Of a stretch of 64,000 nucleotides of DNA, positions 3,962 through 48,316 are shown piece by piece; position 1 is the stretch's first letter; every line of letters begins with the position of its first letter. Origin of the DNA: Acidobacteriota bacterium (GTDB lineage: Bacteria; Acidobacteriota; Vicinamibacteria; Vicinamibacterales; UBA2999). The notes below the pieces were generated by a model. The model did not search any database. It was not told where the DNA came from and was given only the letters and a program-made list of their open reading frames with translations. Both the position numbers and the translations under genes were made by a program. The stretch lies in NCBI GenBank assembly GCA_963169195.1, contig CAUJDN010000123.1, forward strand, positions 1,021-65,020, in the 5' to 3' direction.

Positions 3962-4010
3962 GGTTCGAAGCACAAGGGTTCAAAGCACAAGGGTTCAAAG
4001 CACAAGGGTG
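3962..4010. repeat. 15-nt tandem repeat GGTTCRAAGCACAAG x3.3
   Basis: Read directly from the sequence: ggttcgaagcacaag ggttcaaagcacaag ggttcaaagcacaag ggtg. It lies between the MATE stop and the pruA start. Confidence 0.85.
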
Positions 4011-4013
4011 TGG

Positions 4014-5423
4014 CTACGCCCTCGCGCCCTCGATCTCCACCTTGATGTGTCGCCAGCGGCCCTGGCGGAAGCGGAGCACGGTGAGCACGCATCGCGTGAA
4101 ATGGCCCAGCACGATGGCCAGCCAGATGTCAGAGGCCACGAGCGGCCGGGTCGCCTGGATGGCCAGGCACATGCCGATGGGCACCGCCATCTGAGAGGCC
4201 AGCGTGATGAAAAGCGGGCTGCGCGTGTCGCCGGTCCCCTGCAGGCCGCCGGTGTAGGTGAGCGCGACGGTGATGAAGAAGCCCGACACGGCGAGGTACT
4301 GAAGGAGTTGCTCGCCCAGCCGGGCGACCTCGGGCTCGGTGGCGCCGAAGAGCCCGAGCAGCAGGTGCGGGGCCGCCACGAACGCCAGGCCCACGCCGCC
4401 GGCCACCCACAGCCCAATCCGCGACGCCGCGTGCACGCCGAGGATGGCGCGCTCGGGGTGCCCCGCGCCCAGGTTCTGGCCCGCGACCGTCGCCGCGGCG
4501 CCCATCAGGCCCACGGAGGTCCACGTGATCATCGAGAAGAGCTCGGTGTAGCCGATGGCGTAGGCGGCCTGGGCCGCCGCGCTGTGCTCCAGCGACCCGA
4601 TGAAGCGGAGCAGCAGGACGCCGGCGACGTTCATCGCGATGCCCTGCACGCCGGTGGGCAGGCCGAAGCGGAACAGCGATCGGATGATCGCCCAGTCGGG
4701 CCTGACGTCCATGTGCCGCGAGAAGCGGATGACGAGCTTGCCCCTGAAGAAGAGGTACAGCGCAGCGACACTGACCGTGTTCGACGCGATCACGGTGCCC
4801 AGGGCCGACCCGGTCGTGCCCAGCTTCGGCACCAGGATCAGGTTCAACACCAGGTTGAGCAGCGTCATCGTGACCCCGAGCCGGAGCGGCGTGCGCGCGT
4901 CGCCGGCCGCCCGGAGGGCACTGCTCAGCATGAAGAACAGCATCATGCCGATGCTGAACGTGAAGTTGATGCGGAGGAACGGCAGCGCCTGCGCCTTCAC
5001 CTCGGGGGCGGCGTTCACCATGTCGAGCAGGTACGGCGCCGCGAAGTACCCGAACGGCGCGAGCAGCAGGCCGAACATCGCCAGGGCCGTCAGGAAGGCC
5101 TGGTAGACGGTGCGGTTGACCTTGTCCTCCTCGCCCGCCCCGGCGAAGCGCGCCACCAGCACCGCCTGGCCGGTGAACAGCGACGCCATGAAGACGATGA
5201 CGACGAGGAAGATCTGCCAGCTGATGCCAATGGCCGCATTGGCCGTGTAGCCGATCAGGTTGCCGACCAGGACGTGGTCCACCACGCCCTGCAGTCCGGC
5301 CACCACGTTCTGCAGCATCGTGGGCCACGCCAGCCTCCACACGGCCGGGCCGATGGGGCCTTCCACGAGCGAACGGTCGAACGGCGTGGGCTTCGTCTGC
5401 GCGCGCGGCGCCGGGTCGGCCAT
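4014..5423 (-). CDS. MATE family efflux transporter
   Basis: ORF 4014..5666. From ATG 5423 the protein reads MADPAPRAQTKPTPFDRSLVEGPIGPAVWRLAWPTMLQNVVAGLQGVVDHVLVG..., a typical MATE N-terminus, and has about 12 hydrophobic helices. The 81 upstream codons translate the octamer repeat and are not coding. Confidence 0.88.
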   Translation of the reverse strand: MADPAPRAQTKPTPFDRSLVEGPIGPAVWRLAWPTMLQNVVAGLQGVVDHVLVGNLIGYTANAAIGISWQIFLVVIVFMASLFTGQAVLVARFAGAGEEDKVNRTVYQAFLTALAMFGLLLAPFGYFAAPYLLDMVNAAPEVKAQALPFLRINFTFSIGMMLFFMLSSALRAAGDARTPLRLGVTMTLLNLVLNLILVPKLGTTGSALGTVIASNTVSVAALYLFFRGKLVIRFSRHMDVRPDWAIIRSLFRFGLPTGVQGIAMNVAGVLLLRFIGSLEHSAAAQAAYAIGYTELFSMITWTSVGLMGAAATVAGQNLGAGHPERAILGVHAASRIGLWVAGGVGLAFVAAPHLLLGLFGATEPEVARLGEQLLQYLAVSGFFITVALTYTGGLQGTGDTRSPLFITLASQMAVPIGMCLAIQATRPLVASDIWLAIVLGHFTRCVLTVLRFRQGRWRHIKVEIEGARA

Positions 5424-5466: not shown

Positions 5467-5578
5467 GTTCTGGGGTTCTGGGGTTCTGGGGTTCTGAGGT
5501 TCTGAGGTTCTGGGGTTCTGGGGTTCTGCGGTTCTGGGGTTCTGGGGTTTGCGGGTTCTGAGGTTCTGAGGTTCTGAG
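5467..5578. repeat. octamer tandem array GTTCTGRG (=GGGGTTCT family), 14 units, G-rich on plus strand
   Basis: Read directly from the sequence. Units are gttctggg x3, gttctgag x2, gttctggg x2, gttctgcg, gttctggg x2, gtttgcgg, gttctgag x3. Confidence 0.9.
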
Positions 5579-5587
5579 TGCTAGGCT

Positions 5588-6088
5588 CGGGAAGGCAAAG
5601 AAGGGAACCACGGCCGTCGACACGCGCCGCCAGGCCTTGCCGATCGTCGGGAAGCGCTGGCCCCACTCGCTGGCCTCGACGGTGCTGATGAGATCCGGCG
5701 AGACATCGACCGCGTACATTTCCAGCAGAAAGGCCTGAATCTCGCGGACGGTGAGGCCCCGCGCCTATAGCGCGAGGCTCTCGTCATCGAAGCCGGTGAA
5801 GCGGCGTACACGCGCGGCCCGTCATCGGTCAGCACCGTCTTGCCGCCAGTGCCGTTGCGATGATTGGCCGCGTCGTCGGGCTTGGCCCCGCCGGGGGCAT
5901 AGCCGAGATGGTGGCTCAGCTCCGCCCCGAGCGCGCGCTCGATGATGGCTTTCTTGAAGCGCCGGGTGGCGGCCTCGACTTTCGGCCGCGGTCAGCGGCC
6001 CTTCGCGCACGAACTGGTCCAGCACCTGGACCGGCACCGGGGCCAGGATTTCGGCGTCACGCGTTTCGCTCTTCCGTTTGCGGGGCAT
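5588..6088 (-). pseudogene. decayed IS256-family (mutator-type) transposase remnant
   Basis: Three minus-strand frames together give MPRKRKSETRDAEILAPVPVQVLDQFVREGPLTAAE / VEAATRRFKKAIIERALGAELSHHLGYAPGGAKPDDAANHRNGTGGKTVLTDDGP / [41 protein letters not shown] / EWGQRFPTIGKAWRR..VVPFFAFP. These are hallmark IS256 N- and C-terminal blocks. The remnant carries frameshifts, an in-frame TAG and loss of the central DDE region. Confidence 0.8.
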
Positions 6089-6164
6089 GGGACCTCCTCA
6101 TCCTATGCCTCACACACAGAATTTCTGACACCCTCGGCTCGCAGAACCCTCGAAACATGCACTC

Positions 6165-6240
6165 GAGAACCCCAGAACCCCAGAACCCCAGAACCTCAGA
6201 ACCTCAGAACCCCAGAACCTCAGAACCCCAGAACCTCAGA
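6165..6240. repeat. octamer tandem array CAGAACCY (reverse complement of GGGTTCTG), about 9.5 units, G-rich on minus strand
   Basis: Read directly from the sequence. The last unit contains the stop codon of the topoisomerase B-subunit gene. An isolated copy (gcagaaccct) lies at 6141-6150. Confidence 0.9.
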
Positions 6241-8140
6241 CATCTATCTCCCCCGCATCCTCCGCCCGTTCCATGATGAAGCGGAACCGCGCCGAGGCGT
6301 CCTTCCCCATCAGCTCGTTGATCACGCGGTCCGTCACCAGCTGGTCGGCCACCTGCACCTTGAGGAGCCGACGCGTGCGGGGGTTCAGCGTCGTCTCCCA
6401 CAGCACCTTCGGCATCATCTCGCCCAGGCCCTTGAAGCGCGTGATCTCCGGCGTCGCGCGGCCGGTCTTCTGCCGCACGATCTGGTTCTTCTGCGCCTCG
6501 TCCAGGGCCCAGTAGGTCTCCTTGCCGATGTCGATGCGGTAGAGCGGCGGCTGCGCCAGGTACACCTTCCCCGCCGTGATCAGCTGCGGCAGGTGGCGGT
6601 ACAGGAACGTGAGGAGCAGCGTGGAGATGTGATGGCCGTCGGAGTCGGCGTCGGCCAGCAGGATCACCTTGCCGTACCGCATCCGGTTGAGGTCGAAGTG
6701 CTTCCCGACGCCGCACCCCAGCGCGGTCACCAGGTCCGCAAGTTCCTTGTTCTCGAGGACCTTCGCCGTGGACACACCCTCGGTGTTCAGCACCTTGCCG
6801 CGCAGCGGGAGGATGGCCTGCCGTGCGCGGTCTCGGCCCTGCTTGGCCGACCCGCCGGCCGAATCGCCCTCCACGATGAAGAGCTCGCTGGTGATGGAGC
6901 CGGGATGGGTGCAGTCGGAGAGCTTGCCGGGCAGGTTCACGCGCCCCGCCGTGGGCCCCTTCCGCACCACTTCCTGCTGGGCCGCGCGGCTGGCCTCGCG
7001 CGCCCGCGCCGCCAGGATGATGCGCGCGACAATGGCCTCGGCCACCGACTGGTTGTTGTTCAGCCAGTGCTCGAGCGCGGGCCGCACGAGGCCATCCACG
7101 GCCGAGAGCACCTCGGGGTTGTTCAACCGGTCCTTGGTCTGTCCCTGGAACTGCGGCTCCTGCACGAACACGGACAGGATGCCCGTGGTGCCCTCGCGGA
7201 TGTCATCGGCGGTGAGGGTGACGCCCTTCGGCGAAAGGGTGTGCGTCTCGATGTAGTTGCGCACGGCCTTGCCCACCCCGGCCCGGAGGCCGCTCTCGTG
7301 CGTGCCGCCGGAACCCGTCGGGATGCCGTTCACGTAGCTCCGCAGGTGCTCGTCGGTGGACTCGGTCCACTGGAGCACGAGCTCCAGCTTGACGCCGTTC
7401 TCCTTCTCGAGCACGAACGGCGCCTCGTGCACGGGCCTGGCCTGCCGCTCCGCGACGATCTTCTTCAGGTAGTCGACCAGGCCTTCGGCGTGCTGGAACA
7501 CGTCCTTGCGGCCGGCCGGCTCGTCCTCGAAGGCGACCTTGACGCCGCGGTGCAGGTAGCTGGCCACTTCCAGCCGGTCGCGGATGATCGCGCCGTCGAA
7601 CTCCACCTTCGGGAAGATGGTCGGGTCCGGCCGGAAGAACACGCTGGTCCCGCTGCCGCGCGCCGGGCCGGTCTTCCTGAGAGCACCCGTGGGCCTGCCC
7701 TGCTTGAAGCTCATCTCCCACTGCGCGCCGTCGCGGCGCACCGTGGCGACGAGCTCGCGCGAGAGCGCGTTCACCACGCTCGCGCCCACGCCGTGCAGGC
7801 CGCCCGCCGTCTTGTAGTTGCCGGCCTCGAACTTCCCGCCCGCGTGGAGGACCGTGAAGATCACTTCGAGCGCGCTCTTCTTCGTCTTCGGGTGCACGTC
7901 CACCGGGATCCCGCGCCCGTCGTCCTCGATGGTGATGGACGAACCGTCCTTGTGCAGGGTCACCCGGATGTTCGAGGCGTAGCCGTTCATCGCCTCGTCG
8001 ATGGCGTTGTCGAGCACTTCCCAGACCAGGTGGTGCAGCCCCGCGGCGCCGACGCCGCCGATGTACATGCCCGGGCGCTTGCGAACGGGCTCGAGGCCCT
8101 CGAGGACGGTGATGTCTTTGGCTGTGTAAGTCGTGGACAA
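6236..8140 (-). CDS. type IIA DNA topoisomerase subunit B (GyrB/ParE family, short 634-aa form)
   Basis: MSTTYTAKDITVLEGLEPVRKRPGMYIGG..HHLVWEVLDNAIDEA..GGLHGVGASVVNALS (GHKL ATPase) plus the Toprim block EGDSAGGSAKQGRDR and PLRGKVLN. The start codon is TTG. I cannot separate gyrB from parE by eye. Confidence 0.9.
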   Translation of the reverse strand: MSTTYTAKDITVLEGLEPVRKRPGMYIGGVGAAGLHHLVWEVLDNAIDEAMNGYASNIRVTLHKDGSSITIEDDGRGIPVDVHPKTKKSALEVIFTVLHAGGKFEAGNYKTAGGLHGVGASVVNALSRELVATVRRDGAQWEMSFKQGRPTGALRKTGPARGSGTSVFFRPDPTIFPKVEFDGAIIRDRLEVASYLHRGVKVAFEDEPAGRKDVFQHAEGLVDYLKKIVAERQARPVHEAPFVLEKENGVKLELVLQWTESTDEHLRSYVNGIPTGSGGTHESGLRAGVGKAVRNYIETHTLSPKGVTLTADDIREGTTGILSVFVQEPQFQGQTKDRLNNPEVLSAVDGLVRPALEHWLNNNQSVAEAIVARIILAARAREASRAAQQEVVRKGPTAGRVNLPGKLSDCTHPGSITSELFIVEGDSAGGSAKQGRDRARQAILPLRGKVLNTEGVSTAKVLENKELADLVTALGCGVGKHFDLNRMRYGKVILLADADSDGHHISTLLLTFLYRHLPQLITAGKVYLAQPPLYRIDIGKETYWALDEAQKNQIVRQKTGRATPEITRFKGLGEMMPKVLWETTLNPRTRRLLKVQVADQLVTDRVINELMGKDASARFRFIMERAEDAGEIDV

Positions 8141-8157
8141 GGCAGGAAAGATTGTAA

Positions 8158-8229
8158 AGGTTCTGAGGTTCTGAGGTTCTGAGGTTCTGGGGTTCTGGGG
8201 TTCTGGGGTTCTGGGGTTCTGGGGTTCGC
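8158..8229. repeat. octamer tandem array GGTTCTGR, 9 units, G-rich on plus strand
   Basis: Read directly: ggttctga x3, ggttctgg x5, ggttcgcg. It lies about 18 nt upstream of the topoisomerase B start and just downstream of the DUF1835 stop. Confidence 0.9.
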
Positions 8230-8234
8230 GGGCT

Positions 8235-9242
8235 CTAGCGCTGCTCGAAGGTGTCGCGGGCGTCGTTCCAGCGCCAGACGGGGTCGGGCTTCAGGCCGCG
8301 GGAGGCTGGCGACGCCACCAGGTGCACGCCGCCCAGCCAGCGGTCGATGCCGTTGAGCAACACGTGATCCAGTTCGCCGGCGAGCACACGCCGGCCGGCG
8401 TCCGTCAGCGCCAGGCGGGGGGCGGACGGGTCGTCGCGCCACCAGTCCGCATCGTGCCAGCGGCCAGGCGCCGCGCCCTCGGCTCGCATCAGCGGATCAG
8501 CCGCGATGACGAGGGGCCGGATGTGCGACCACCATCCGGCGTCCCCCATGAAGACGGCCTCCTCCACCGCGTGGTTCGCGGCGCGGAATGCGTCGCGAAC
8601 GGGGAGCGGCGATCCCGCCACCGCGGCGAGCGTCTGCCGCTCGGTGCGTGAGAGGCCGTCACGAATCGACGGGAACTGCTCCAGGTGTCGCCGTAGCGAC
8701 GACCTGAGGGAGGGCCACGCTCCAGGATGGTCGAACGACACCAGTCCGGTGGGCTCCGGCGCGCGAAAGCAGTCCCAGGCGTGGGTCGCGGCCGCCCACC
8801 GCCCGGGGCCGAGCGGCTCACGCGCCGCGAACCACGCCGCGAGCTGCTCGTCAGGCTGCGCCGCGAGGTAATCGTCAGCGAGAATCGCCGTGACACGCGC
8901 GATGGCGCCGGTCGCCGCGACACGAATCGGCGCGAGCTGGCTCAGCACCTGGAGGACGTGCAGCTGGTCGTAGAGGTCGTGCTCGAACCACAAGACGATC
9001 TCGTCGCCGGACACGGCCTCGGCCAGCGCCGCATCGCGCGCGGCCAGCGAGCGCTCGATCTGCGCGGCATCGCCCCAATCGACCGCCAGGAACTCCGCCC
9101 GCACCCGCCGCAGCGCCTCGTCGACCAATCCCGCCGGCACGGGACCCTCGTGCAGCACGTCATCCCACGGCACGATGCGGCCCGGCACACCCAGATCGTG
9201 CAGGCGGGAGAGCGCGACAGAGCCGTTGGTGACGTGGAGCAT
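8235..9242 (-). CDS. DUF1835 domain-containing protein
   Basis: ORF 8235..9386. From ATG 9242 it reads MLHVTNGSVALSRLHDLGVPGRIVPWDDVLHEGPVP...EIVLWFEHDLYDQLHVLQVL, the pattern I recognise as the DUF1835 family. The upstream 48 codons are translated repeat. Confidence 0.7.
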   Translation of the reverse strand: MLHVTNGSVALSRLHDLGVPGRIVPWDDVLHEGPVPAGLVDEALRRVRAEFLAVDWGDAAQIERSLAARDAALAEAVSGDEIVLWFEHDLYDQLHVLQVLSQLAPIRVAATGAIARVTAILADDYLAAQPDEQLAAWFAAREPLGPGRWAAATHAWDCFRAPEPTGLVSFDHPGAWPSLRSSLRRHLEQFPSIRDGLSRTERQTLAAVAGSPLPVRDAFRAANHAVEEAVFMGDAGWWSHIRPLVIAADPLMRAEGAAPGRWHDADWWRDDPSAPRLALTDAGRRVLAGELDHVLLNGIDRWLGGVHLVASPASRGLKPDPVWRWNDARDTFEQR

Positions 9243-9337
9243 TCGGGGGTTCGGGGGTTCGGGGGTTCGGGGGTTCTGGGGTTCGGAGGTTCTGGGGTTC
9301 GGGGGTTCGGAGGTTCTGGGGTTCTGGGGTTCTTGAG
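9242..9337. repeat. octamer tandem array TTCGGGGG/TTCTGGGG, 12 units, G-rich on plus strand
   Basis: Read directly from the sequence. The array begins at the DUF1835 start codon and ends 28 nt before the start of the divergent gene at 9365. Confidence 0.9.
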
Positions 9338-9358
9338 GGCATCGCGGGCTGGTATCGT
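9331..9358 (+). promoter_or_regulatory. putative promoter TCTTGA-N16-TATCGT, 6 nt upstream of GTG 9365 (leaderless arrangement)
   Basis: The sequence reads tcttgagggcatcgcgggctggtatcgtagcccc GTG. The -35-like hexamer is the last repeat unit. Confidence 0.35.
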
Positions 9359-11377: not shown

Positions 11378-11382
11378 TCTTT

Positions 11383-11423
11383 AGGTCCTGAAGTCTTGGG
11401 GGTCCTGAGGTCTTGAGGCTCAG
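11383..11423. repeat. degenerate octamer array AGGTCCTG/AAGTCTTG, about 5 units
   Basis: Read directly from the sequence. It sits between the NYN start (6 nt away) and the MBOAT stop, which it overlaps. Confidence 0.7.
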
Positions 11424-28744: not shown

Positions 28745-31192
<2,448 letters not shown>

Positions 31193-31203
31193 CAGATCAG
31201 AAC

Positions 31204-31240
31204 GGGAGCCGGGAGTCGGGAGTCGGGAGTCGGGAAGTCG
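31204..31240. repeat. heptamer tandem array GGGAGYC x5
   Basis: Read directly from the sequence: gggagcc gggagtc gggagtc gggagtc gggaagtc. It begins 12 nt upstream of the topoisomerase A start codon. Confidence 0.88.
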
Positions 31241-31242
31241 GG

Positions 31243-31298
31243 CCCCAAGACCTCAAGACCCCAAGACCCCAAGACCTCAAGACCTCAAGACCCAAGGA
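31243..31298. repeat. octamer tandem array CCYCAAGA x7 (minus strand TCTTGRGG)
   Basis: Read directly from the sequence. It is contiguous with the heptamer array, in the divergent spacer between topoisomerase A and TrpB2. Confidence 0.88.
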
Positions 31299-41424: not shown

Positions 41425-41506
41425 GGGGGGATAGTGTATGACGGAAGGTCGGGTGCCGGGGTGCAGGGGTGCACGGGCGCCGGGGTGTCAGGTGCCGCGC
41501 GCAGGT

Positions 41507-42592: not shown

Positions 42593-42600
42593 ATCGCGCC

Positions 42601-42633
42601 GGGAGCCGGGAGTCGGGAGTCCGGAGTCGGGAC
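42601..42633. repeat. heptamer tandem array GGGAGYC x4.5
   Basis: Read directly from the sequence: gggagcc gggagtc gggagtc cggagtc gggac. Confidence 0.85.
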
Positions 42634-43174: not shown

Positions 43175-43209
43175 CTTCGGACTTCCGGTTCCCGGTTCCC
43201 GGTTCCCGA
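43175..43209. repeat. heptamer tandem array GGTTCCC (reverse complement GGGAACC) x3-4
   Basis: Read directly from the sequence: cttcggacttccgg ttcccgg ttcccgg ttcccga. It lies in a convergent spacer abutting the GcvT-like stop. Confidence 0.8.
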
Positions 43210-44411: not shown

Positions 44412-44417
44412 ATTATA
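44412..44417 (-). promoter_or_regulatory. TATAAT -10 box 6 nt upstream of the GcvT-like GTG (leaderless arrangement)
   Basis: The minus strand reads CGCACCCG-TATAAT-CCTCCC-GTG CCC ATC. Confidence 0.5.
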
Positions 44418-44462
44418 CGGGTGCGAACCGGTGCGGGCGGGTGCGGACGGGTGCGGGGGGGG
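44418..44462. repeat. 10-nt tandem repeat CGGGTGCGRR x4 plus G-run
   Basis: acgggtgcga accggtgcgg gcgggtgcgg acgggtgcgg gggggg. It lies immediately upstream of the TATAAT box on the minus strand. Confidence 0.8.
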
Positions 44463-45051: not shown

Positions 45052-45092
45052 GCCCGCTCCGGGCATTGTACGCGCCGCGTGCGTGCCGCACG

Positions 45093-45098
45093 TATAAT
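45093..45098 (+). promoter_or_regulatory. TATAAT -10 box 12 nt upstream of GTG 45111
   Basis: The context is ccgcacg-TATAAT-ctcggcaccacc-GTG. It shares the context CGGCAC..TATAAT..CGGCACCAC with 49977-49999. Confidence 0.5.
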
Positions 45099-45110
45099 CT
45101 CGGCACCACC

Positions 45111-46742
45111 GTGAAATACGACGCCATCGTCATCGGGGGCGGTCACAACGGCCTCACCTGCGCTGCGTACCTCGCGCGCGCGGGGCGACGCGTGCTGGCG
45201 CTCGAGCGCCGGCACGTGCTGGGCGGCGCCGCCGTCACCGAGGAGATCGTCCCGGGGTTCAAGTACTCGGTCTGCTCCTACGTCGTCTCGCTGCTGAGGC
45301 CCGAGATCATCCGCGACCTGGATCTGCCCCGCCACGGCATGGAGCTCCTGCCGCTGGATGGCACGTTCACGCCGATGCCGGGCGGCGACTACCTGTGGCG
45401 CGTGAACGACCACGAGAAGACGCGACGGGAGATCGCGCGCCACTCGCGCCTGGACGCGGAAGCCTACGACGAGTACGGCCGCGCGATGGTCGAGATGGGC
45501 CGCTTCGCCAAGCCCATCCTCGCGATGACGCCGCCGGACCCGACCCGGCTCGATCCCCGGGGCCTGCTGGATCTGCTGTCGCTCGGCACGCGCTTCCGCG
45601 CCATGCGGCCTCACGATCGCATCAACCAGGTGCAGCTGCTCACCATGAGCGCGGCGGACTTCCTGGACCAGTGGTTCGAGACCGACGTGCTGAAGGCCAC
45701 GATGAGCGCGTCGGGCATCATCGGCACGTTCCTGGGCGTGAAGTCGCCGGGAACGGCCTACGTCCTGCTCCACCACTACATGGGGGAGATCGACGGGTCC
45801 TTCCGCTCGTGGGGCCTCTCGCGCGGGGGCACGGGCGCGGTGTCGAACGCCATCGGCGACGCGGCCCGGCGCTTCGGCGCCGAGATCCGGACGAACGCGC
45901 CGGTCGGGCGCATCATCACGAAGAACGGCCGCGCCACGGGCGTCGCGCTCGAGAACGGCGACGAGTTCCACGCCGACACGGTCGTGTCGAGCGTGGATCC
46001 GCGGCTCACGTTCCAGCGCTGGATGGACGAGAAGGAGCTGCCGCCGGACTTCGTCGAGGGCGTGCGCCGCTACAAGTTCCGCGGGTCGTCGGGCAAGGTG
46101 AACCTCGCCCTGGACGGCCTGCCGAACTTCACGTGCCTCCCCGGCGCGGGCCCGCACCTGCGCGGCGCCATCTCCATCTCGCCGAGCGTGGACTACATGG
46201 AGCGCGCCTACGACGATGCGAAGTACGGGCGGTTCTCGCGGCGGCCCTACATCGACATCGTCATCCCGTCGCTGACGGACACGTCGCTGGCTCCGCCCGG
46301 CAAGCACGTCATGTCGTGCTTCGTCCAATACGCGCCCTACGAATTGCGGCGGGAGCCGGGAGCCGGGAGCCGGGAGTCCGAGGACCCGGAGCGCCGGGAC
46401 TCCAGTCCGACCGAGTTCGAGTGGGACCGGCAGCGCGAGGCGTTCGGCGACACGGTCATCGACACCATCGCCGAGTACGCCCCGAACATCCGGGACCTCA
46501 TCCTCCATCGCCAGGTGCTGACGCCGCTCGACATCGAGCGCGACTTCGGGCTCGCGGAGGGCAACATCTTCCAGGGCGAGCTGACGCTCGAGCAGCTGTT
46601 CTTCCTGCGGCCCGTTCCCGGGTGGGCGCAGTACACGACGCCGGTGCGCGGCCTCTACATGTGCGGATCCGCCACGCACCCGGGCGGCGGCATCATGGGC
46701 GCGCCGGGGAAGAACGCGGCGGAACGGATCCTCGGACGATGA
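45111..46742 (+). CDS. FAD/NAD(P)-dependent oxidoreductase of the phytoene desaturase (CrtI-like, COG1233) superfamily, paralogue 1
   Basis: GTG 45111. VKYDAIVIGGGHNGLTCAAYLARAGRRVLALERRHVLGGA is a Rossmann GxGxxG motif. The C-terminus GLYMCGSATHPGGGIMGAPG is typical of the family. Confidence 0.8.
   Translation: MKYDAIVIGGGHNGLTCAAYLARAGRRVLALERRHVLGGAAVTEEIVPGFKYSVCSYVVSLLRPEIIRDLDLPRHGMELLPLDGTFTPMPGGDYLWRVNDHEKTRREIARHSRLDAEAYDEYGRAMVEMGRFAKPILAMTPPDPTRLDPRGLLDLLSLGTRFRAMRPHDRINQVQLLTMSAADFLDQWFETDVLKATMSASGIIGTFLGVKSPGTAYVLLHHYMGEIDGSFRSWGLSRGGTGAVSNAIGDAARRFGAEIRTNAPVGRIITKNGRATGVALENGDEFHADTVVSSVDPRLTFQRWMDEKELPPDFVEGVRRYKFRGSSGKVNLALDGLPNFTCLPGAGPHLRGAISISPSVDYMERAYDDAKYGRFSRRPYIDIVIPSLTDTSLAPPGKHVMSCFVQYAPYELRREPGAGSRESEDPERRDSSPTEFEWDRQREAFGDTVIDTIAEYAPNIRDLILHRQVLTPLDIERDFGLAEGNIFQGELTLEQLFFLRPVPGWAQYTTPVRGLYMCGSATHPGGGIMGAPGKNAAERILGR
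46351..46378 (+). repeat. heptamer array GGGAGCC x3 plus GGGAGTC inside the CDS (encodes EPGAGSR)
   Basis: Read directly from the sequence. The codons are cgg cgg gag ccg gga gcc ggg agc cgg gag tcc. Confidence 0.88.
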
Positions 46743-48316
46743 CATACGACGCCATCGTGATGGGCGGGGGCATCAACGGGCTGACCTGCGCGGCGATGCT
46801 GGGAAGGGCCGGGCTCCGGACACTGCTGCTCGAAGGGCGCGACGCGGTGGGCGGCTGCGCGGCCGAACACGAACTGGCCCCCGGGTTCCGCGTGCCCACG
46901 CTCGCCCACCGCACGGGACCGTTGCGCGCGGACGTCGTGAACGACCTGCAGCTGGCGAACCACGGGCTGTCCTTCGTCGCGCGCCCCGTGCGGATGACGG
47001 CGCTCTCGCCCGACGGCCGCGCGCTGGCGCTCTTCGCCGACCCCGCGGCGGCGGCAGGCGCCATCCGGCCGTGGTCCGACCACGACGCGGCGGCGTGGCC
47101 CGCCTTCGCCCGGTCGCTCTCCAGGGTCGCCGGCGTCGTGGGGACGCTGCTGGCCCGCACGCCCCCGGACGTGGACGATCCCGGTGCCCACGATCTCTGG
47201 ACGGCGATGCGCGCGCTCGGCGCCTTCCGAGGGCTGCCGAAGGACGATGCATGGCGGCTGCTCCGGTGGGGACCGATGGCGGTGGCCGACCTGACGAGCG
47301 AGGTCTTCCAGACCGAGCTCCTGCGCGCAGCCGTGGCGGCCGACGGCCTGCTGGGTGGGATGATGGGGCCCTGGTCCGCCGGCAGCGGCCTTCAGCTGCT
47401 GCTCCATGCAGCCAACCAGGCGGTAGCGGCCCTGCGCGATGCGGAGGTCGAGGGCGGGCCCATCGCGGTCGCGCGAGCCCTGGAGGCCGCCGCCCGGCGG
47501 CACGGCGTGGGCATCCGGACGCACGCCGAAGTCGCCCAGGTGGTGGTGCGCGGCGATCGCGCCGCCGGCGTCACGCTCACCTCGGGCGAGACGATCGAGT
47601 CACGCGCCGTCGTGTCCGGCCTGGATCCGAAGCGCACGTTCCTCTCGCTCTGCGACGCGGACCACCTGCCGCCGGAGTTCCTCTGGCGCATCCGGCGCGT
47701 CCGCACGCGCGGGACGCTGGCCAAGGTCAACCTGGCGCTGTCCGCGCTGCCGGTGTTCGGCGAGGCGACCAGGCCGATGCTCGCGGGCCCGGTGCGCATC
47801 GCGCCGACGCTGGACTACCTGGAGCGGGCGTTCGATCACGCCAAGTACGGCGAGTGGTCGCGCGAGCCGTGGATCGAGTTCACCATTCCCTCGCTCGTGG
47901 ACGCCTCGCTGGCGCCCGCGGGCGCGCACGTGCTGTCGGCGTACGTGCAGTGGGTGCCGCGTGGCGTCGGGAGGCGGGAGCCGGGAGCCGGGAGCCGGGA
48001 CACCGACGCCATCCTCGACACGGTGCTGGCCACGCTGGAGCGCTACTCGCCCGGACTCCGCGGGCTCATCGTCGCGAGCGAGATCATCACGCCCGCCGAC
48101 ATGGAGCGCGAGTGGGGGCTCAGTGGCGGGCACGTCTTCCACGGTGAGCTGGCGCTGGACCAGATGTTGATGATGCGGCCGCTGCTCGGCTTCGGGCGCT
48201 ACCGCTCGCCCATCGACGGGCTGTTCCTCTGTGGTTCGGGCACGCATCCGGGCACGGGGCTGACGGGCGGGTCCGGGGCTAACGCCGCCCGCGTCATCGC
48301 CGGGTGCCTGCGCTAG
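46739..48316 (+). CDS. FAD/NAD(P)-dependent oxidoreductase of the phytoene desaturase (CrtI-like) superfamily, paralogue 2
   Basis: ATG 46739 forms an ATGA overlap with paralogue 1. It reads MTYDAIVMGGGINGLTCAAMLGRAGLRTLLLEGRDAVGGC... and has the C-terminus GLFLCGSGTHPGTGLTGGSG. Confidence 0.8.
   Translation: MTYDAIVMGGGINGLTCAAMLGRAGLRTLLLEGRDAVGGCAAEHELAPGFRVPTLAHRTGPLRADVVNDLQLANHGLSFVARPVRMTALSPDGRALALFADPAAAAGAIRPWSDHDAAAWPAFARSLSRVAGVVGTLLARTPPDVDDPGAHDLWTAMRALGAFRGLPKDDAWRLLRWGPMAVADLTSEVFQTELLRAAVAADGLLGGMMGPWSAGSGLQLLLHAANQAVAALRDAEVEGGPIAVARALEAAARRHGVGIRTHAEVAQVVVRGDRAAGVTLTSGETIESRAVVSGLDPKRTFLSLCDADHLPPEFLWRIRRVRTRGTLAKVNLALSALPVFGEATRPMLAGPVRIAPTLDYLERAFDHAKYGEWSREPWIEFTIPSLVDASLAPAGAHVLSAYVQWVPRGVGRREPGAGSRDTDAILDTVLATLERYSPGLRGLIVASEIITPADMEREWGLSGGHVFHGELALDQMLMMRPLLGFGRYRSPIDGLFLCGSGTHPGTGLTGGSGANAARVIAGCLR
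47969..48003 (+). repeat. heptamer array GGGAGGC plus GGGAGCC x3 plus GGGACAC inside the CDS (encodes REPGAGSR)
   Basis: Read directly from the sequence. It sits at the loop homologous to the insert in paralogue 1. Confidence 0.88.

What the first reader, a model, noticed from the sequence alone, without database searches (positions are those of the whole stretch)
5467..9337. Telomere-like G-rich octamer arrays (GGGGTTCT)n fill successive intergenic spacers
There are four arrays of the 8-nt unit GGGGTTCT (variants GAGGTTCT, GGGGTTCG). They lie at 5467-5578 (14 units), 6165-6240 (about 9.5 units, opposite orientation), 8158-8229 (9 units) and 9242-9337 (12 units). Related units occur at 11383-11423 (GGTCYTGA) and 31243-31298 (TCTTGRGG on the minus strand). 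Almost every spacer between 3.9 and 11.4 kb is mostly repeat. The unit differs by one base from the ciliate telomere repeat TTTTGGGG. Stretches 8182-8229 and 9242-9273 satisfy the canonical G-quadruplex rule (four G3+ runs with loops of 1-7 nt). At 5467, 8158 and 9242 the G-rich strand is the template strand of the adjacent minus-strand genes. The arrays are not CRISPR, because there are no spacers. They are not coding: PEPQNPRT-like translations appear only as spurious N-terminal extensions. The nearest described analogue I know is the STRR heptamer arrays of heterocystous cyanobacteria. I do not know of a description of such octamer arrays in GC-rich soil bacteria.
Basis: partly seen in the sequence, partly recalled or inferred. 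Interest (0 to 1): 0.7.

Follow-up and report, generated by a model that had tools for sequence, protein, structure and literature searches.

The report
Hypervariable octamer repeat arrays between genes
The spacers between these genes are filled with real 8-base tandem repeats that change copy number between near-identical strains. This kind of bacterial "microsatellite" is already described in Xanthomonas and cyanobacteria. In this soil lineage the arrays also pair up into long hairpins, and the same paired arrays bracket a small gene family first found inside ribosomal RNA intervening sequences.

Summary
Four arrays of ([G/C][G/A]GGTTCT)n lie at 5467-5578, 6165-6240, 8158-8229 and 9242-9337: 36 matches against 0.02 expected by chance. 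They are non-coding and present in independent assemblies.

They are hypermutable. The only multi-base differences among >=99.4%-identical assemblies are +8, +40 and +14 bp, each a whole number of units inside an array.

The organism is a Vicinamibacterales acidobacterium. In 80 unbiased related loci, 95 of 115 arrays sit in the 14% non-coding DNA. Heptamers dominate, and the 95 intergenic arrays carry 79 different units.

The arrays show no bias for spacer type, transcription strand or replication strand. They lie close to stop codons. G-quadruplex potential is a property of this lineage's unit, not of the phenomenon.

This class is already published: Mrázek's 5-11-nt long SSRs, cyanobacterial STRR, and the G4-forming heptamers of Xanthomonas and Nostoc, inverted pairs included.

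New here: same-family neighbouring arrays are inverted 34:1 and almost always G-rich arm first. Such inverted arrays bracket most PF05635 (23S-rRNA-IVS / four-helix-bundle) genes examined, 25 of 32 clearly, across four phyla.

Verdict: a new member of a known kind, with a lead worth following.

The parts
5467..5578 (+). Octamer array, about 14 units of [G/C][G/A]GGTTCT, G-rich on the + strand. It is the left (G-rich) arm of an inverted pair and ends 4 nt from a TAGAAT box upstream of the MATE gene.
5579..6088 (-). IS256/Mutator-family transposase remnant in the core between the two arms. It has frameshifts, an in-frame stop and an internal deletion. It is absent from the orthologous spacer of the relative SJ725 (L048).
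6165..6240 (-). Octamer array, about 9.5 units, C-rich on the + strand. It is the right arm of the inverted pair. The TGA stop of the parE-like gene lies in its last unit.
8158..8229 (+). Solo octamer array of 9 units. It fills the 94-nt spacer from the DUF1835 stop codon to the TACAAT box 10 nt upstream of the parE-like TTG start. It meets the G4 rule at 8189-8232.
9242..9337 (+). Solo octamer array of about 12 units (GGGGTTCG/T) that abuts the ATG of the DUF1835 gene. Copy number is polymorphic: +8 bp and +40 bp in two near-identical assemblies.
3962..4009 (+). 15-mer array (GGTTCAAAGCACAAG)x3.2 in the spacer between the aldehyde dehydrogenase and MATE genes.
11378..11423 (+). Degenerate related octamer array (GGTCYTGA) that fills the 42-nt spacer between the MBOAT and NYN genes.
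31203..31242 (+). Heptamer array (CGGGAGT)x5.6, directly upstream of the parC/gyrA-like gene (28745-31192, minus strand).
31243..31298 (+). Octamer array (CCCCAAGA/CCTCAAGA)x6.5 in the same divergent spacer.
41451..41492 (+). Octamer array (GGGTGCAG)x5 in a divergent spacer, upstream of a TACACT box.
42600..42632 (+). Heptamer array (CGGGAGT)x4.7, 8 nt after the FAA-hydrolase stop codon.
43185..43208 (+). Heptamer array (CCGGTTC)x3.4 downstream of gcvT. One near-identical assembly has +14 bp (2 units) here, and four Logan contigs end exactly at this point.
44417..44461 (+). 10-mer array (ACGGGTGCGG)x4 that ends at the TATAAT box 6 nt upstream of the gcvT GTG start.
46350..46399 (+). Heptamer array (CGGGAGC)n inside the coding sequence of an amine-oxidase-family gene (45066-46742). 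It encodes RREPGAGSR.
47968..48000 (+). Heptamer array (CGGGAGC)x4.7 inside the tandem paralogue (46739-48316). It encodes the same RREPGAGSR peptide.
4014..5423 (-). MATE efflux gene, downstream of the inverted array pair.
6236..8140 (-). GyrB/ParE-type topoisomerase subunit gene, flanked by arrays on both sides.
8235..9242 (-). DUF1835-like gene. The apparent N-terminal extension to 9386 is array sequence.

Best explanation
The arrays are a lineage-specific family of hypermutable, non-coding short tandem repeats in a Vicinamibacterales acidobacterium. They belong to the known class of long simple-sequence repeats with 5-11-nt units. That class includes cyanobacterial STRR, Beggiatoaceae TAACTGA repeats and the Xanthomonas/Nostoc GGGNATC-type repeats.

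Shown:
- The arrays gain and lose whole units between near-identical strains.
- They persist at orthologous sites over about 15% nucleotide divergence, with the same unit and orientation but a different copy number.
- They are excluded from coding DNA unless the repeat stays in frame.
- They occupy every kind of spacer, without transcription-strand or replication-strand bias.
- They sit next to the upstream stop codon and leave the core promoter or start region free.

Inferred:
- They arise and are maintained by slipped-strand mispairing of units too long for efficient mismatch repair.
- They spread into whatever intergenic DNA is unconstrained.
- Because an array looks the same after any shift by a whole unit, a copy-number change does not alter the sequence next to a -10 box or a start codon. 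This would explain why arrays are tolerated even upstream of essential genes in an organism that rarely uses Shine-Dalgarno sites.

Second layer, shown: two arrays of one family in a spacer are almost always inverted, in the order G-rich arm, core, C-rich arm. The pair 5467-5578 / 6165-6240 is an example. Such pairs fold into very long hairpins.

Second layer, inferred by analogy with 23S-rRNA intervening sequences: the hairpins are RNase III substrates or cruciforms that separate the flanking messages. The G-quadruplex potential of this unit is probably incidental.
For: Reality and excess over chance.

Non-coding bias: 12 of 15 window arrays lie in about 13% of the DNA (p=7e-9). In 80 loci chosen only by parE homology, 95 of 115 arrays lie in 14.4% of the DNA (p=6e-60). 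Arrays inside genes have periods of 9 or 12.

Hypermutability: over about 54 kb compared among assemblies at least 99.4% identical, the indels are +8 and +40 bp in array 9242-9337 and +14 bp in array 43185-43208, all whole units. There is one unrelated 1-bp deletion.

Persistence: orthologous arrays have 8.8 vs 6.5, 5.9 vs 10.9 and 7.9 vs 11.2 copies at 85-97% nucleotide identity. The MATE-parE spacer keeps both arms in relative L048.

No positional or strand preference:
- spacer type matches the background (chi-square p=0.67);
- the sense strand is C-rich 36 times and G-rich 24 times;
- the G-rich strand agrees within a locus 25 times and disagrees 18 times;
- it agrees with the sign of the locus GC skew 50 times and disagrees 41 times.

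Stop-codon proximity: the median distance is 8-10 nt from the stop codon, against 27-55 nt to the next start codon.

Few SD motifs, and many TAnnnT boxes 9-16 nt upstream of start codons.

Inverted pairs: 34 inverted against 1 direct; the 5' arm is G-rich in 23 pairs and C-rich in 4 (p=3e-4). The L048 spacer RNA folds at -117 kcal/mol (z=-9.1). The window arms are 95% complementary over 74 nt.

Published precedent for the class, including convergent inverted pairs, copy-number change and stop-codon proximity: PMC4692102, PMC4679880, PMC4060949.
Against: Slippage alone does not explain why the same unit occupies dozens of unlinked spacers in one genome. At least 35 separate 8-kb chunks of the relative SJ725 carry it.

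Slippage alone does not explain why 569 units from 75 loci vary only at positions 1 and 2.

It does not explain the strict G-first polarity of inverted pairs.

It does not explain why PF05635 genes are nearly always bracketed by such pairs.

Gene calls came from a crude GC3-based caller. The SJ725 sample was selected by the octamer itself.

No transcription, RNase III or polymerase data exist for this organism.
Confidence: 0.6

Rival explanations
1. The arrays are the non-autonomous part of a selfish hairpin-element system. The gene-carrying copies are cassettes of the form [G-rich array] - PF05635 (S23p / four-helix-bundle, Avd-like) gene - [C-rich inverted array]. Cargo-less foldbacks and solo arrays, including those in this window, are their derivatives. 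They would be spread or maintained with the help of the protein, in the way REPINs depend on RAYT.
For: Of 32 PF05635 genes examined, 25 are clearly bracketed by inverted arrays, and 2 more have short or weak arms. Among the 23 loci selected by protein homology alone, 17 are clear.
- Acidobacteriota.
- Nostoc, Anabaena, Aulosira, Calothrix, Geminocystis, Riemerella and Gemmatirosa.

In SJ725 the bracketing unit is GGTTCTGG, the same family as the window arrays (L067).

Within one syntenic context the unit differs between genomes, yet the two arms stay complementary.

A cargo-less derivative sits at the orthologous site of a cargo-carrying cassette: L129 against L157, L156 and L120.

The spacer upstream of parE holds different foldback families in different genomes.

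The MATE-parE spacer is empty in relatives with 86-89% amino-acid identity and filled in the window and SJ725.

The Coxiella IVS has polymorphic tandem heptamers upstream of S23p, with the RNase III cut in the first repeat (PMC4990558).
Against: No PF05635 gene is found in the 64-kb window.

The cargo between the window's arms is an IS256 remnant, which fits hairpin loops acting as insertion targets instead.

No target-site duplications were seen at filled sites compared with empty ones.

The PF05635 genes are syntenic across genomes, so they are long-term residents and not recently mobile.

A 125-aa helical bundle has no known catalytic activity.

Most arrays are solo.
Confidence: 0.2
2. The arrays are G-quadruplex regulatory elements. 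G4 on DNA or RNA would control transcription or translation of adjacent genes, as proposed for the Xanthomonas/Nostoc heptamers.
For: The canonical G4 motif is met at 8189-8232, 9245-9281 and 9318-9348 and in 54 of 75 arrays of the family. In the window, 8 of 11 G4 motifs lie in arrays. Related units form G4 in vitro (PMC4692102).
Against: The G-tract is the variable part of the unit. About 22% of units (GAGG, CAGG, GCGG) lack a G3 run. The 14-unit array at 5467 and the array at 6165 never reach four consecutive tracts. There is no strand bias relative to genes. In the unbiased sample, units carry a G3 run in 28% of cases against 19% for random intergenic k-mers, and their skew equals the null. 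In inverted pairs, duplex formation competes with G4.
Confidence: 0.1
3. The arrays are contingency loci. Copy-number changes would switch or tune expression of the neighbouring genes (phase variation).
For: Unit-number polymorphism between near-identical strains at 9242-9337, which lies between two divergent starts, and at 43185-43208. Several arrays end at -10-like boxes.
Against: Arrays are as frequent in convergent spacers as in promoter-bearing ones. They sit closer to stop codons than to start codons. The neighbouring genes are housekeeping genes (topoisomerase subunits, gcvT, MATE). The arrays lie upstream of the -10 box and not between the -35 and -10 elements, so a periodic array keeps the adjoining sequence unchanged when it resizes.
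Confidence: 0.06
4. The arrays are an assembly or sequencing artefact.
For: Several short-read contigs end exactly at an array. Many PF05635-carrying contigs are shorter than 2 kb.
Against: The same arrays at the same sites occur in four independent assemblies, including a 443-kb contig. The differences are whole units only. Orthologous arrays are present in other genomes.
Confidence: 0.01

Closest known systems
G-rich heptamer SSRs of Xanthomonas (GGGAATC) and Nostoc (GGGGAYT), Rehm et al. 2015, PMC4692102
   Same: G-tract-containing units of 7-8 nt. Both occur as many dispersed intergenic arrays and meet the formal G4 motif. Copy number differs between relatives while the type (solo or inverted pair) is kept. 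Both lie close to stop codons and are frequent as 'convergent' inverted pairs, that is, G-rich arm first.
   Different: The unit here is 8 nt, in Acidobacteriota at 70% GC. Arrays are longer (median about 9 units) and show no preference for four units. The G-tract is the least conserved part of the unit. No strand bias relative to ORFs was found here. G4 formation was not tested.
Long SSRs with 5-11-nt units (Mrázek et al. 2007, as summarised in PMC4679880 and PMC4060949), cyanobacterial STRR, and Beggiatoaceae TAACTGA repeats
   Same: Arrays are far longer than chance allows. They are intergenic, occur in free-living bacteria with large genomes, are dominated by heptamers across the clade, and contain several unit families per genome. 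Multiples of three occur inside genes.
   Different: In this lineage an octamer dominates. TAACTGA repeats are strongly oriented and end 1 nt from start codons, whereas these arrays lie next to stop codons and show no orientation bias.
23S rRNA intervening sequences carrying an S23p ORF (Coxiella, Leptospira; PMC4990558)
   Same: A stem-loop formed by terminal inverted repeats around a PF05635 ORF. The cargo has lower GC than the host. The 5' arm is made of tandem heptamers with strain-to-strain copy-number change. This is the same architecture as the array-bracketed PF05635 cassettes found here.
   Different: The cassettes found here lie in ordinary intergenic spacers and not in rRNA. Their arms can reach more than 100 bp. 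The window's own inverted pair carries an IS256 remnant and no S23p gene. RNase III processing was not tested.
REPIN-RAYT systems (PMC3116915) and eukaryotic Foldback elements (the latter from my own knowledge)
   Same: Short repeats form inverted doublets and hairpins in intergenic DNA. A protein gene is flanked by its genome's own repeat family. Foldback elements have terminal inverted repeats built of short tandem repeats.
   Different: No RAYT or other transposase is associated. Mobility is not shown and no target-site duplications were seen. The arms are tandem arrays of variable length and not a fixed palindrome.

Membership tests
Long SSR with 5-11-nt unit / STRR-type intergenic tandem repeats | Head-to-tail repeats of a 5-11-nt unit, much longer than expected by chance | tested here: met
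   8-nt unit with 8.6-13.8 copies. 36 matches against 0.02 expected.
Long SSR with 5-11-nt unit / STRR-type intergenic tandem repeats | Over-representation in non-coding DNA; units that are multiples of three tolerated inside genes | tested here: met
   12 of 15 window arrays and 95 of 115 arrays in unbiased loci are intergenic. Arrays inside genes have periods of 9 or 12.
Long SSR with 5-11-nt unit / STRR-type intergenic tandem repeats | Same unit families dispersed at many loci of one genome | tested here: met
   At least 35 separate 8-kb chunks of the close relative SJ725 carry (GGGGTTCT)3. For the window's own genome only the window and about 54 kb of near-identical assemblies were examined.
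Long SSR with 5-11-nt unit / STRR-type intergenic tandem repeats | Copy-number polymorphism by whole units | tested here: met
   +8, +40 and +14 bp between assemblies at least 99.4% identical. Orthologous arrays differ in copy number.
G4-forming G-rich SSR (Rehm et al. 2015) | Each unit carries a G3+ tract, and at least four consecutive tracts are present | tested here: inconclusive
   Met at 8189-8232, 9245-9281 and 9318-9348. Not met in arrays 5467 and 6165. 54 of 75 arrays of the family meet it.
G4-forming G-rich SSR (Rehm et al. 2015) | Preference for exactly four units | tested here: not met
   The median is 8.8 copies. The window arrays have 8.6-13.8 copies.
G4-forming G-rich SSR (Rehm et al. 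2015) | G4 folding of the oligonucleotide in K+ | not testable with these tools
   This needs CD/UV melting or NMM/ThT assays.
G4-forming G-rich SSR (Rehm et al. 2015) | Frequent convergent inverted pairs | tested here: met
   34 inverted against 1 direct. The G-rich arm comes first in 23 of the 27 pairs with a clear G/C skew. Window pair: 5467 / 6165.
Phase-variation contingency locus | The repeat lies within an ORF or between promoter elements of a surface or virulence gene, so that unit changes switch expression | tested here: not met
   The arrays lie upstream of -10 boxes or after stop codons. The neighbouring genes are housekeeping genes. Convergent spacers are equally populated.
CRISPR array | Repeats of 24-48 nt separated by unique spacers | tested here: not met
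   8-nt units are directly adjacent, with no spacers.
Telomeric repeat | Located at the ends of a linear replicon, with the G-rich strand running 3' outward | tested here: not met
   The arrays are internal, lie between genes, occur in both orientations, and sit inside a 443-kb contig.
IVS-like S23p stem-loop cassette | A PF05635 ORF lies between the two complementary arms | tested here: not met
   There is no PF05635 homologue anywhere in the window (tblastn). The core of the window pair is an IS256 remnant. The feature is met in related loci such as L067, L097, L136, L158 and L192-L200.
IVS-like S23p stem-loop cassette | Terminal inverted repeats that form a long stem | tested here: met
   74 nt at 95% complementarity in the window. 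The orthologue L048 folds at -117 kcal/mol, z=-9.1.
IVS-like S23p stem-loop cassette | Excision or processing of the stem by RNase III | not testable with these tools
   This needs RNA end mapping or in vitro cleavage.
REPIN-RAYT system | A cognate RAYT (IS200/IS605-like) transposase gene flanked by the repeat | not tested
   Not searched for specifically. Pfam scans of nine proteins encoded between 2.3 and 12.9 kb, and the precomputed Pfam families of called genes in near-identical assemblies, list no IS200/IS605-type transposase. The whole genome was not available.

The most novel reading that the evidence does not exclude
Short tandem repeat arrays of the STRR / long-SSR type in several bacterial phyla are not independent slippage products. 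They are the arms of IVS-like hairpin elements whose gene-carrying form encodes the PF05635 four-helix-bundle protein (S23p, Avd-like). The protein binds the 7-8-nt repeats or promotes template switching on them. Cargo-less foldbacks and solo arrays, such as those filling the spacers at 5.4-9.4 kb, are its non-autonomous offspring. This would be a REPIN-RAYT-like partnership. It would explain how one unit colonises many spacers, why paired arrays are G-first and stay complementary, and what the S23p family does.
Probability: 0.2. Interest if true: 0.85.

Novelty: new member of a known kind. Interest (0 to 1): 0.55.

Why it matters
Taken alone, the arrays add an octamer family and a new phylum (Acidobacteriota, order Vicinamibacterales) to a repeat class known since the STRR work. 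The function and dispersal of that class remain unexplained.

They have practical consequences. They break short-read assemblies, create spurious N-terminal extensions in gene calls, and provide natural strain-typing markers.

The more valuable result is the cross-phylum regularity seen while following them up. Paired arrays are inverted and G-rich arm first. The two arms co-vary between genomes. Such pairs bracket most PF05635 genes examined in Acidobacteriota, Cyanobacteriota, Bacteroidota and Gemmatimonadota.

This links three old puzzles: STRR-type repeats, rRNA intervening sequences, and the function of S23p/Avd-like proteins. It makes them testable in cultivable organisms such as Nostoc, Xanthomonas, Luteitalea and Vicinamibacter.

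Tried and rejected
- Transcription-strand bias: not significant.
- Replication-strand or GC-skew bias: none. The window's 8:2 excess of G-rich arrays on the + strand is local.
- Preference for promoter-bearing spacers: none.
- A shared motif across unit families: GAACC/GGTTC occurs in only 6 of 74 units in the unbiased set, mostly in orthologous arrays upstream of parE.
- 'Structure-free spacer' idea: single arrays have an MFE of 0 as ssDNA. The lower folding energy compared with arrays of random k-mers disappears after matching for GC.
- A special status for this octamer: (GGGGTTCT)3 gives 1 hit in viral contigs, and two scrambled controls give 5 and 0. The arrays of the same octamer in Paenibacillus, Photobacterium, Sphaerochaeta and others therefore cannot be called special. 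The genome scan could not be repeated with controls.
- Known RNA families: none in the window.
- Target-site duplications at filled against empty spacers: none recognisable.
- Mirror order of unit variants in the two window arms (95% identity): not clearly above the roughly 89% expected for two arrays of this family.
- Position profile of the GGGGTCTT family: contaminated by GGGGTTCT arrays and not used.
- One look-up failed because of a wrong start codon.
- Literature: the held library has no paper on Vicinamibacterales repeats, none on this octamer, and none linking PF05635 genes to tandem-repeat arms beyond Coxiella.

Full report
**1. Observation**

Reading the sequence and running Tandem Repeats Finder confirm four period-8 arrays:
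- 5467-5576, 13.8 copies;
- 6166-6240, 9.4 copies, opposite orientation;
- 8159-8227, 8.6 copies;
- 9242-9332, 11.4 copies.

Weaker relatives lie at 11378-11418 and 31246-31296. A two-unit probe with up to 2 mismatches matches 36 times, against 0.02 expected from shuffles.

The flanking genes are an aldehyde dehydrogenase, a MATE exporter (4014-5423), a GyrB/ParE-type subunit (6236-8140), a DUF1835-like gene (8235-9242), and NYN and MBOAT genes, all on the minus strand. The arrays fill 60-80% of the free spacer DNA.

These are a 15-mer, several (CGGGAGT/C)n heptamers, (CCGGTTC)n, a 10-mer and (GGGTGCAG)n. Twelve of the 15 arrays lie in the roughly 13% of the window that is non-coding.

**2. 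Source and reality**

A scan of one genome per species for (GGGGTTCT)3 returned mainly Acidobacteriota and Vicinamibacterales MAGs, above all isolate SJ725. A MAG labelled Bifidobacteriaceae is in fact 94-97% identical to SJ725.

Proteins of the window occur unchanged on ENA ('Vicinamibacterales_1'), NCBI, JGI and Logan contigs that are 99.4-99.97% identical to the window. All of them carry the arrays.

Across about 54 kb compared, the indels are:
- +8 and +40 bp in array 9242-9337;
- +14 bp (two heptamers) in array 43185-43208;
- one unrelated 1-bp deletion.

Four short-read contigs end exactly at 43185. The arrays are therefore real and hypermutable by whole units.

**3. Behaviour at larger divergence**

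Orthologous arrays in SJ725 and its relative keep unit and orientation but differ in copy number: 8.8 vs 6.5, 5.9 vs 10.9 and 7.9 vs 11.2.

The MATE-parE spacer of SJ725 (L048) has the same two inverted arrays as the window. It has fewer units and lacks the 510-bp IS256/Mutator transposase remnant that sits between the window's arms.

In relatives whose ParE is 86-89% identical, that spacer is only about 25 bp: a stop codon, three bases, a TACAAT box and a start codon. The array pair was therefore gained in the window/SJ725 lineage.

**4. Unbiased sample**

Eighty metagenome loci were chosen only by homology to the ParE-like protein (658 kb). They hold 95 intergenic and 20 coding arrays, although 85.6% of the DNA is coding (p=6e-60).
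- Period 7 dominates among intergenic arrays (57 of 95). Arrays inside genes have period 9 or 12.
- The 95 intergenic arrays have 79 distinct units.
- 54 of 337 spacers carry arrays.
- Spacer type (co-directional, divergent, convergent) equals the background (p=0.67).
- Orientation relative to transcription is unbiased: G-rich sense 11 times and C-rich sense 7 times here, and C-rich 36 times and G-rich 24 times in the window/SJ725/other-Acidobacteriota set.
- The G-rich strand does not follow neighbouring arrays (25 same, 18 opposite) or the local GC skew (50 agree, 41 disagree).
- Arrays sit a median of 8-10 nt from the upstream stop codon, but 27-55 nt from the next start codon.

This is what is expected if arrays occupy whatever DNA is unconstrained.

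The organism shows few Shine-Dalgarno motifs. Many genes have a TAnnnT box 9-16 nt upstream of the start codon, the leaderless type. ParE in most relatives has TATAAT followed by 8 nt and then GTG. This helps explain how arrays can run right up to -10 boxes or start codons.

**5. G-quadruplex reading**

The formal rule is met in arrays 8158 and 9242. It is not met in arrays 5467 or 6165.

Over 569 units from 75 arrays the profile is [G 76% / C 22%][G 78% / A 21%]GGTTC[T 93%]. The G-tract is the variable part and GGTTC is at least 98% constant. 21 of 75 arrays lack a G4 motif. In the unbiased set, G3 runs and GC skew are at null levels.

A single array strand has no Watson-Crick structure. A 'structure-free spacer' idea did not survive GC matching.

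G4-forming heptamer SSRs with very similar genomics are already described in Xanthomonas and Nostoc (PMC4692102). The wider class is Mrázek's 5-11-nt long SSRs (PMC4679880, PMC4060949). On this basis the arrays are a new member of a known kind.

**6. Inverted pairs**

Neighbouring arrays of the same family (gap 2-700 bp) are inverted in 34 cases and direct in 1. The 5' arm is G-rich in 23 cases and C-rich in 4 (p=3e-4). Two of the four exceptions are A/T-type units.

A palindrome reads the same on both strands, so this polarity is intrinsic. It is seen for many unrelated units. The Xanthomonas paper also reports pairs 'in convergent orientation'.

The L048 spacer folds into a single hairpin of -117 kcal/mol (z=-9.1). 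The window arms are 95% complementary over 74 nt.

The excess of inverted pairs can be explained by survivorship, because direct pairs collapse by slippage. The polarity cannot be explained that way.

**7. Link to PF05635 genes**

Long cores between paired arrays often contain a low-GC gene of the PF05635 family. This is the 23S-rRNA-intervening-sequence protein, also called S23p or 'four helix bundle protein'.
- All nine such genes in the loci already held have arrays next to them, and eight are bracketed on both sides. The unit families are GGTTCTGG, TAACGAA, TTGATTG, AAATGCA and GGTTCCNN.
- Homologues were then fetched purely by protein identity. Seven of eight distinct loci show both arms. 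Within one syntenic context the unit changes between genomes while the arms stay complementary.
- Among plasmid-borne homologues in Nostoc, Anabaena, Aulosira, Calothrix, Geminocystis, Riemerella and Gemmatirosa, 10 of 15 are clearly bracketed and 2 more weakly, always purine/G-rich arm first.
- A cargo-less version sits at the orthologous site of a cargo-carrying cassette (L129).
- The genuine Coxiella IVS has polymorphic tandem heptamers upstream of S23p, with the RNase III cut in the first repeat (PMC4990558).

I found no paper that generalises this link. The held library is incomplete, however.

The window itself has no PF05635 gene.

**8. Interpretation**

Most likely (0.6): these are slippage-driven, selection-bounded, largely non-adaptive hypervariable repeats. 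Paired copies form long hairpins that are probable RNase III or cruciform substrates.

A REPIN-RAYT-like partnership with PF05635 cassettes (0.2) would explain three things that slippage alone does not: dispersal of one unit to many loci, the polarity of pairs, and the co-variation of the arms. Mobility and protein function are not shown.

G4 regulation (0.1), phase variation (0.06) and artefact (0.01) are less likely.

**9. Limits**

- Gene calls came from a GC3 heuristic, checked against database gene calls only around the window.
- The SJ725 loci were selected by the octamer itself.
- TRF thresholds miss degenerate arms.
- No expression or biochemical data exist for this organism.
- The genome-collection scan could not be repeated with control octamers.

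Noticed in passing
L067 3091-3468; L097 9499-9888; L136 2817-3128; L158 5391-5759; L120/L156/L157/L160; L192-L200; L206, L208, L209, L211, L213-L219: Genes of the PF05635 family (23S-rRNA-IVS protein / four-helix-bundle protein) are bracketed by inverted arrays of 7-9-nt units, G/purine-rich arm upstream. The unit differs from genome to genome but the two arms stay complementary. This is seen in Acidobacteriota, Cyanobacteriota, Bacteroidota and Gemmatimonadota.
   Followed up: yes
window 46350-46399 and 47968-48000: Heptamer arrays (CGGGAGC)n lie inside two tandem paralogous amine-oxidase-family genes (45066-46742 and 46739-48316). At the equivalent position both encode the same peptide, RREPGAGSR. 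Three heptamers make 21 nt, which is 7 codons.
   Followed up: partly
window 5579-6088: A degraded IS256/Mutator-family transposase remnant sits exactly in the core between the two inverted arrays. It has at least 2 frameshifts, an in-frame stop and an internal deletion. It is absent from the orthologous spacer in SJ725.
   Followed up: yes
window, upstream of the starts at 8140, 14022, 21386, 21427, 33208-region, 41424 and 44405: Few genes have Shine-Dalgarno motifs. Many have a TAnnnT box 9-16 nt before the start codon, for example TATAAT-N6-GTG at gcvT and TACAAT-N10-TTG at parE. This suggests widespread leaderless or very short-leader mRNAs.
   Followed up: partly
L002, L015, L016, L021, L027, L029, L031, L039, L047, L052, L059, L066, L070, L083 (CAZLBU01): A MAG deposited as 'uncultured Bifidobacteriaceae' has 66-71% GC. 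Three of its contigs align at 85-97% nucleotide identity (94-97% for L016) to loci of the acidobacterial MAG SJ725, so it is mislabelled.
   Followed up: yes
L099 and L104, upstream of the parE-like gene (about 5850-5990): The C-terminal tail of the upstream gene is encoded by a 9-nt array, (AAGGGTTCC)n, giving KGSKGS... It is the inverted partner of an 8-nt array (TGGAACCC)n just after the stop codon. One arm has apparently been taken into coding sequence by adopting a period of 9.
   Followed up: no
L208 (Anabaena sp. 90 pANA02), L212 (Pseudanabaena), L217 (Picosynechococcus), L213 (Nostoc edaphicum): In cyanobacterial plasmids the four-helix-bundle gene sits between genes of one functional cluster: cas6 and cas4, cas10 and cmr3, and the two ribonucleotide reductase subunit genes. 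This fits a selfish insertion into spacers within gene clusters.
   Followed up: no
L011 7574-7963 (Paenibacillus typhae), L036, L005, L006, L028, L030, L050, L088: Long, nearly perfect arrays of the same octamer, up to 49 copies, occur in unrelated phyla and often at contig ends. Scrambled-octamer controls in viral contigs gave similar counts, so this may only mean that any octamer can expand somewhere.
   Followed up: partly
window 51081: Two Logan contigs lack one G here. This splits a 592-aa CarboxypepD_reg-domain gene into 232-aa and 375-aa ORFs. It may be a population frameshift variant or an assembly error.
   Followed up: no
window 28745-31192 and 6236-8140: The window carries both a ParC/GyrA-type and a ParE/GyrB-type topoisomerase subunit gene, about 20 kb apart. 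Each has repeat arrays directly upstream.
   Followed up: no
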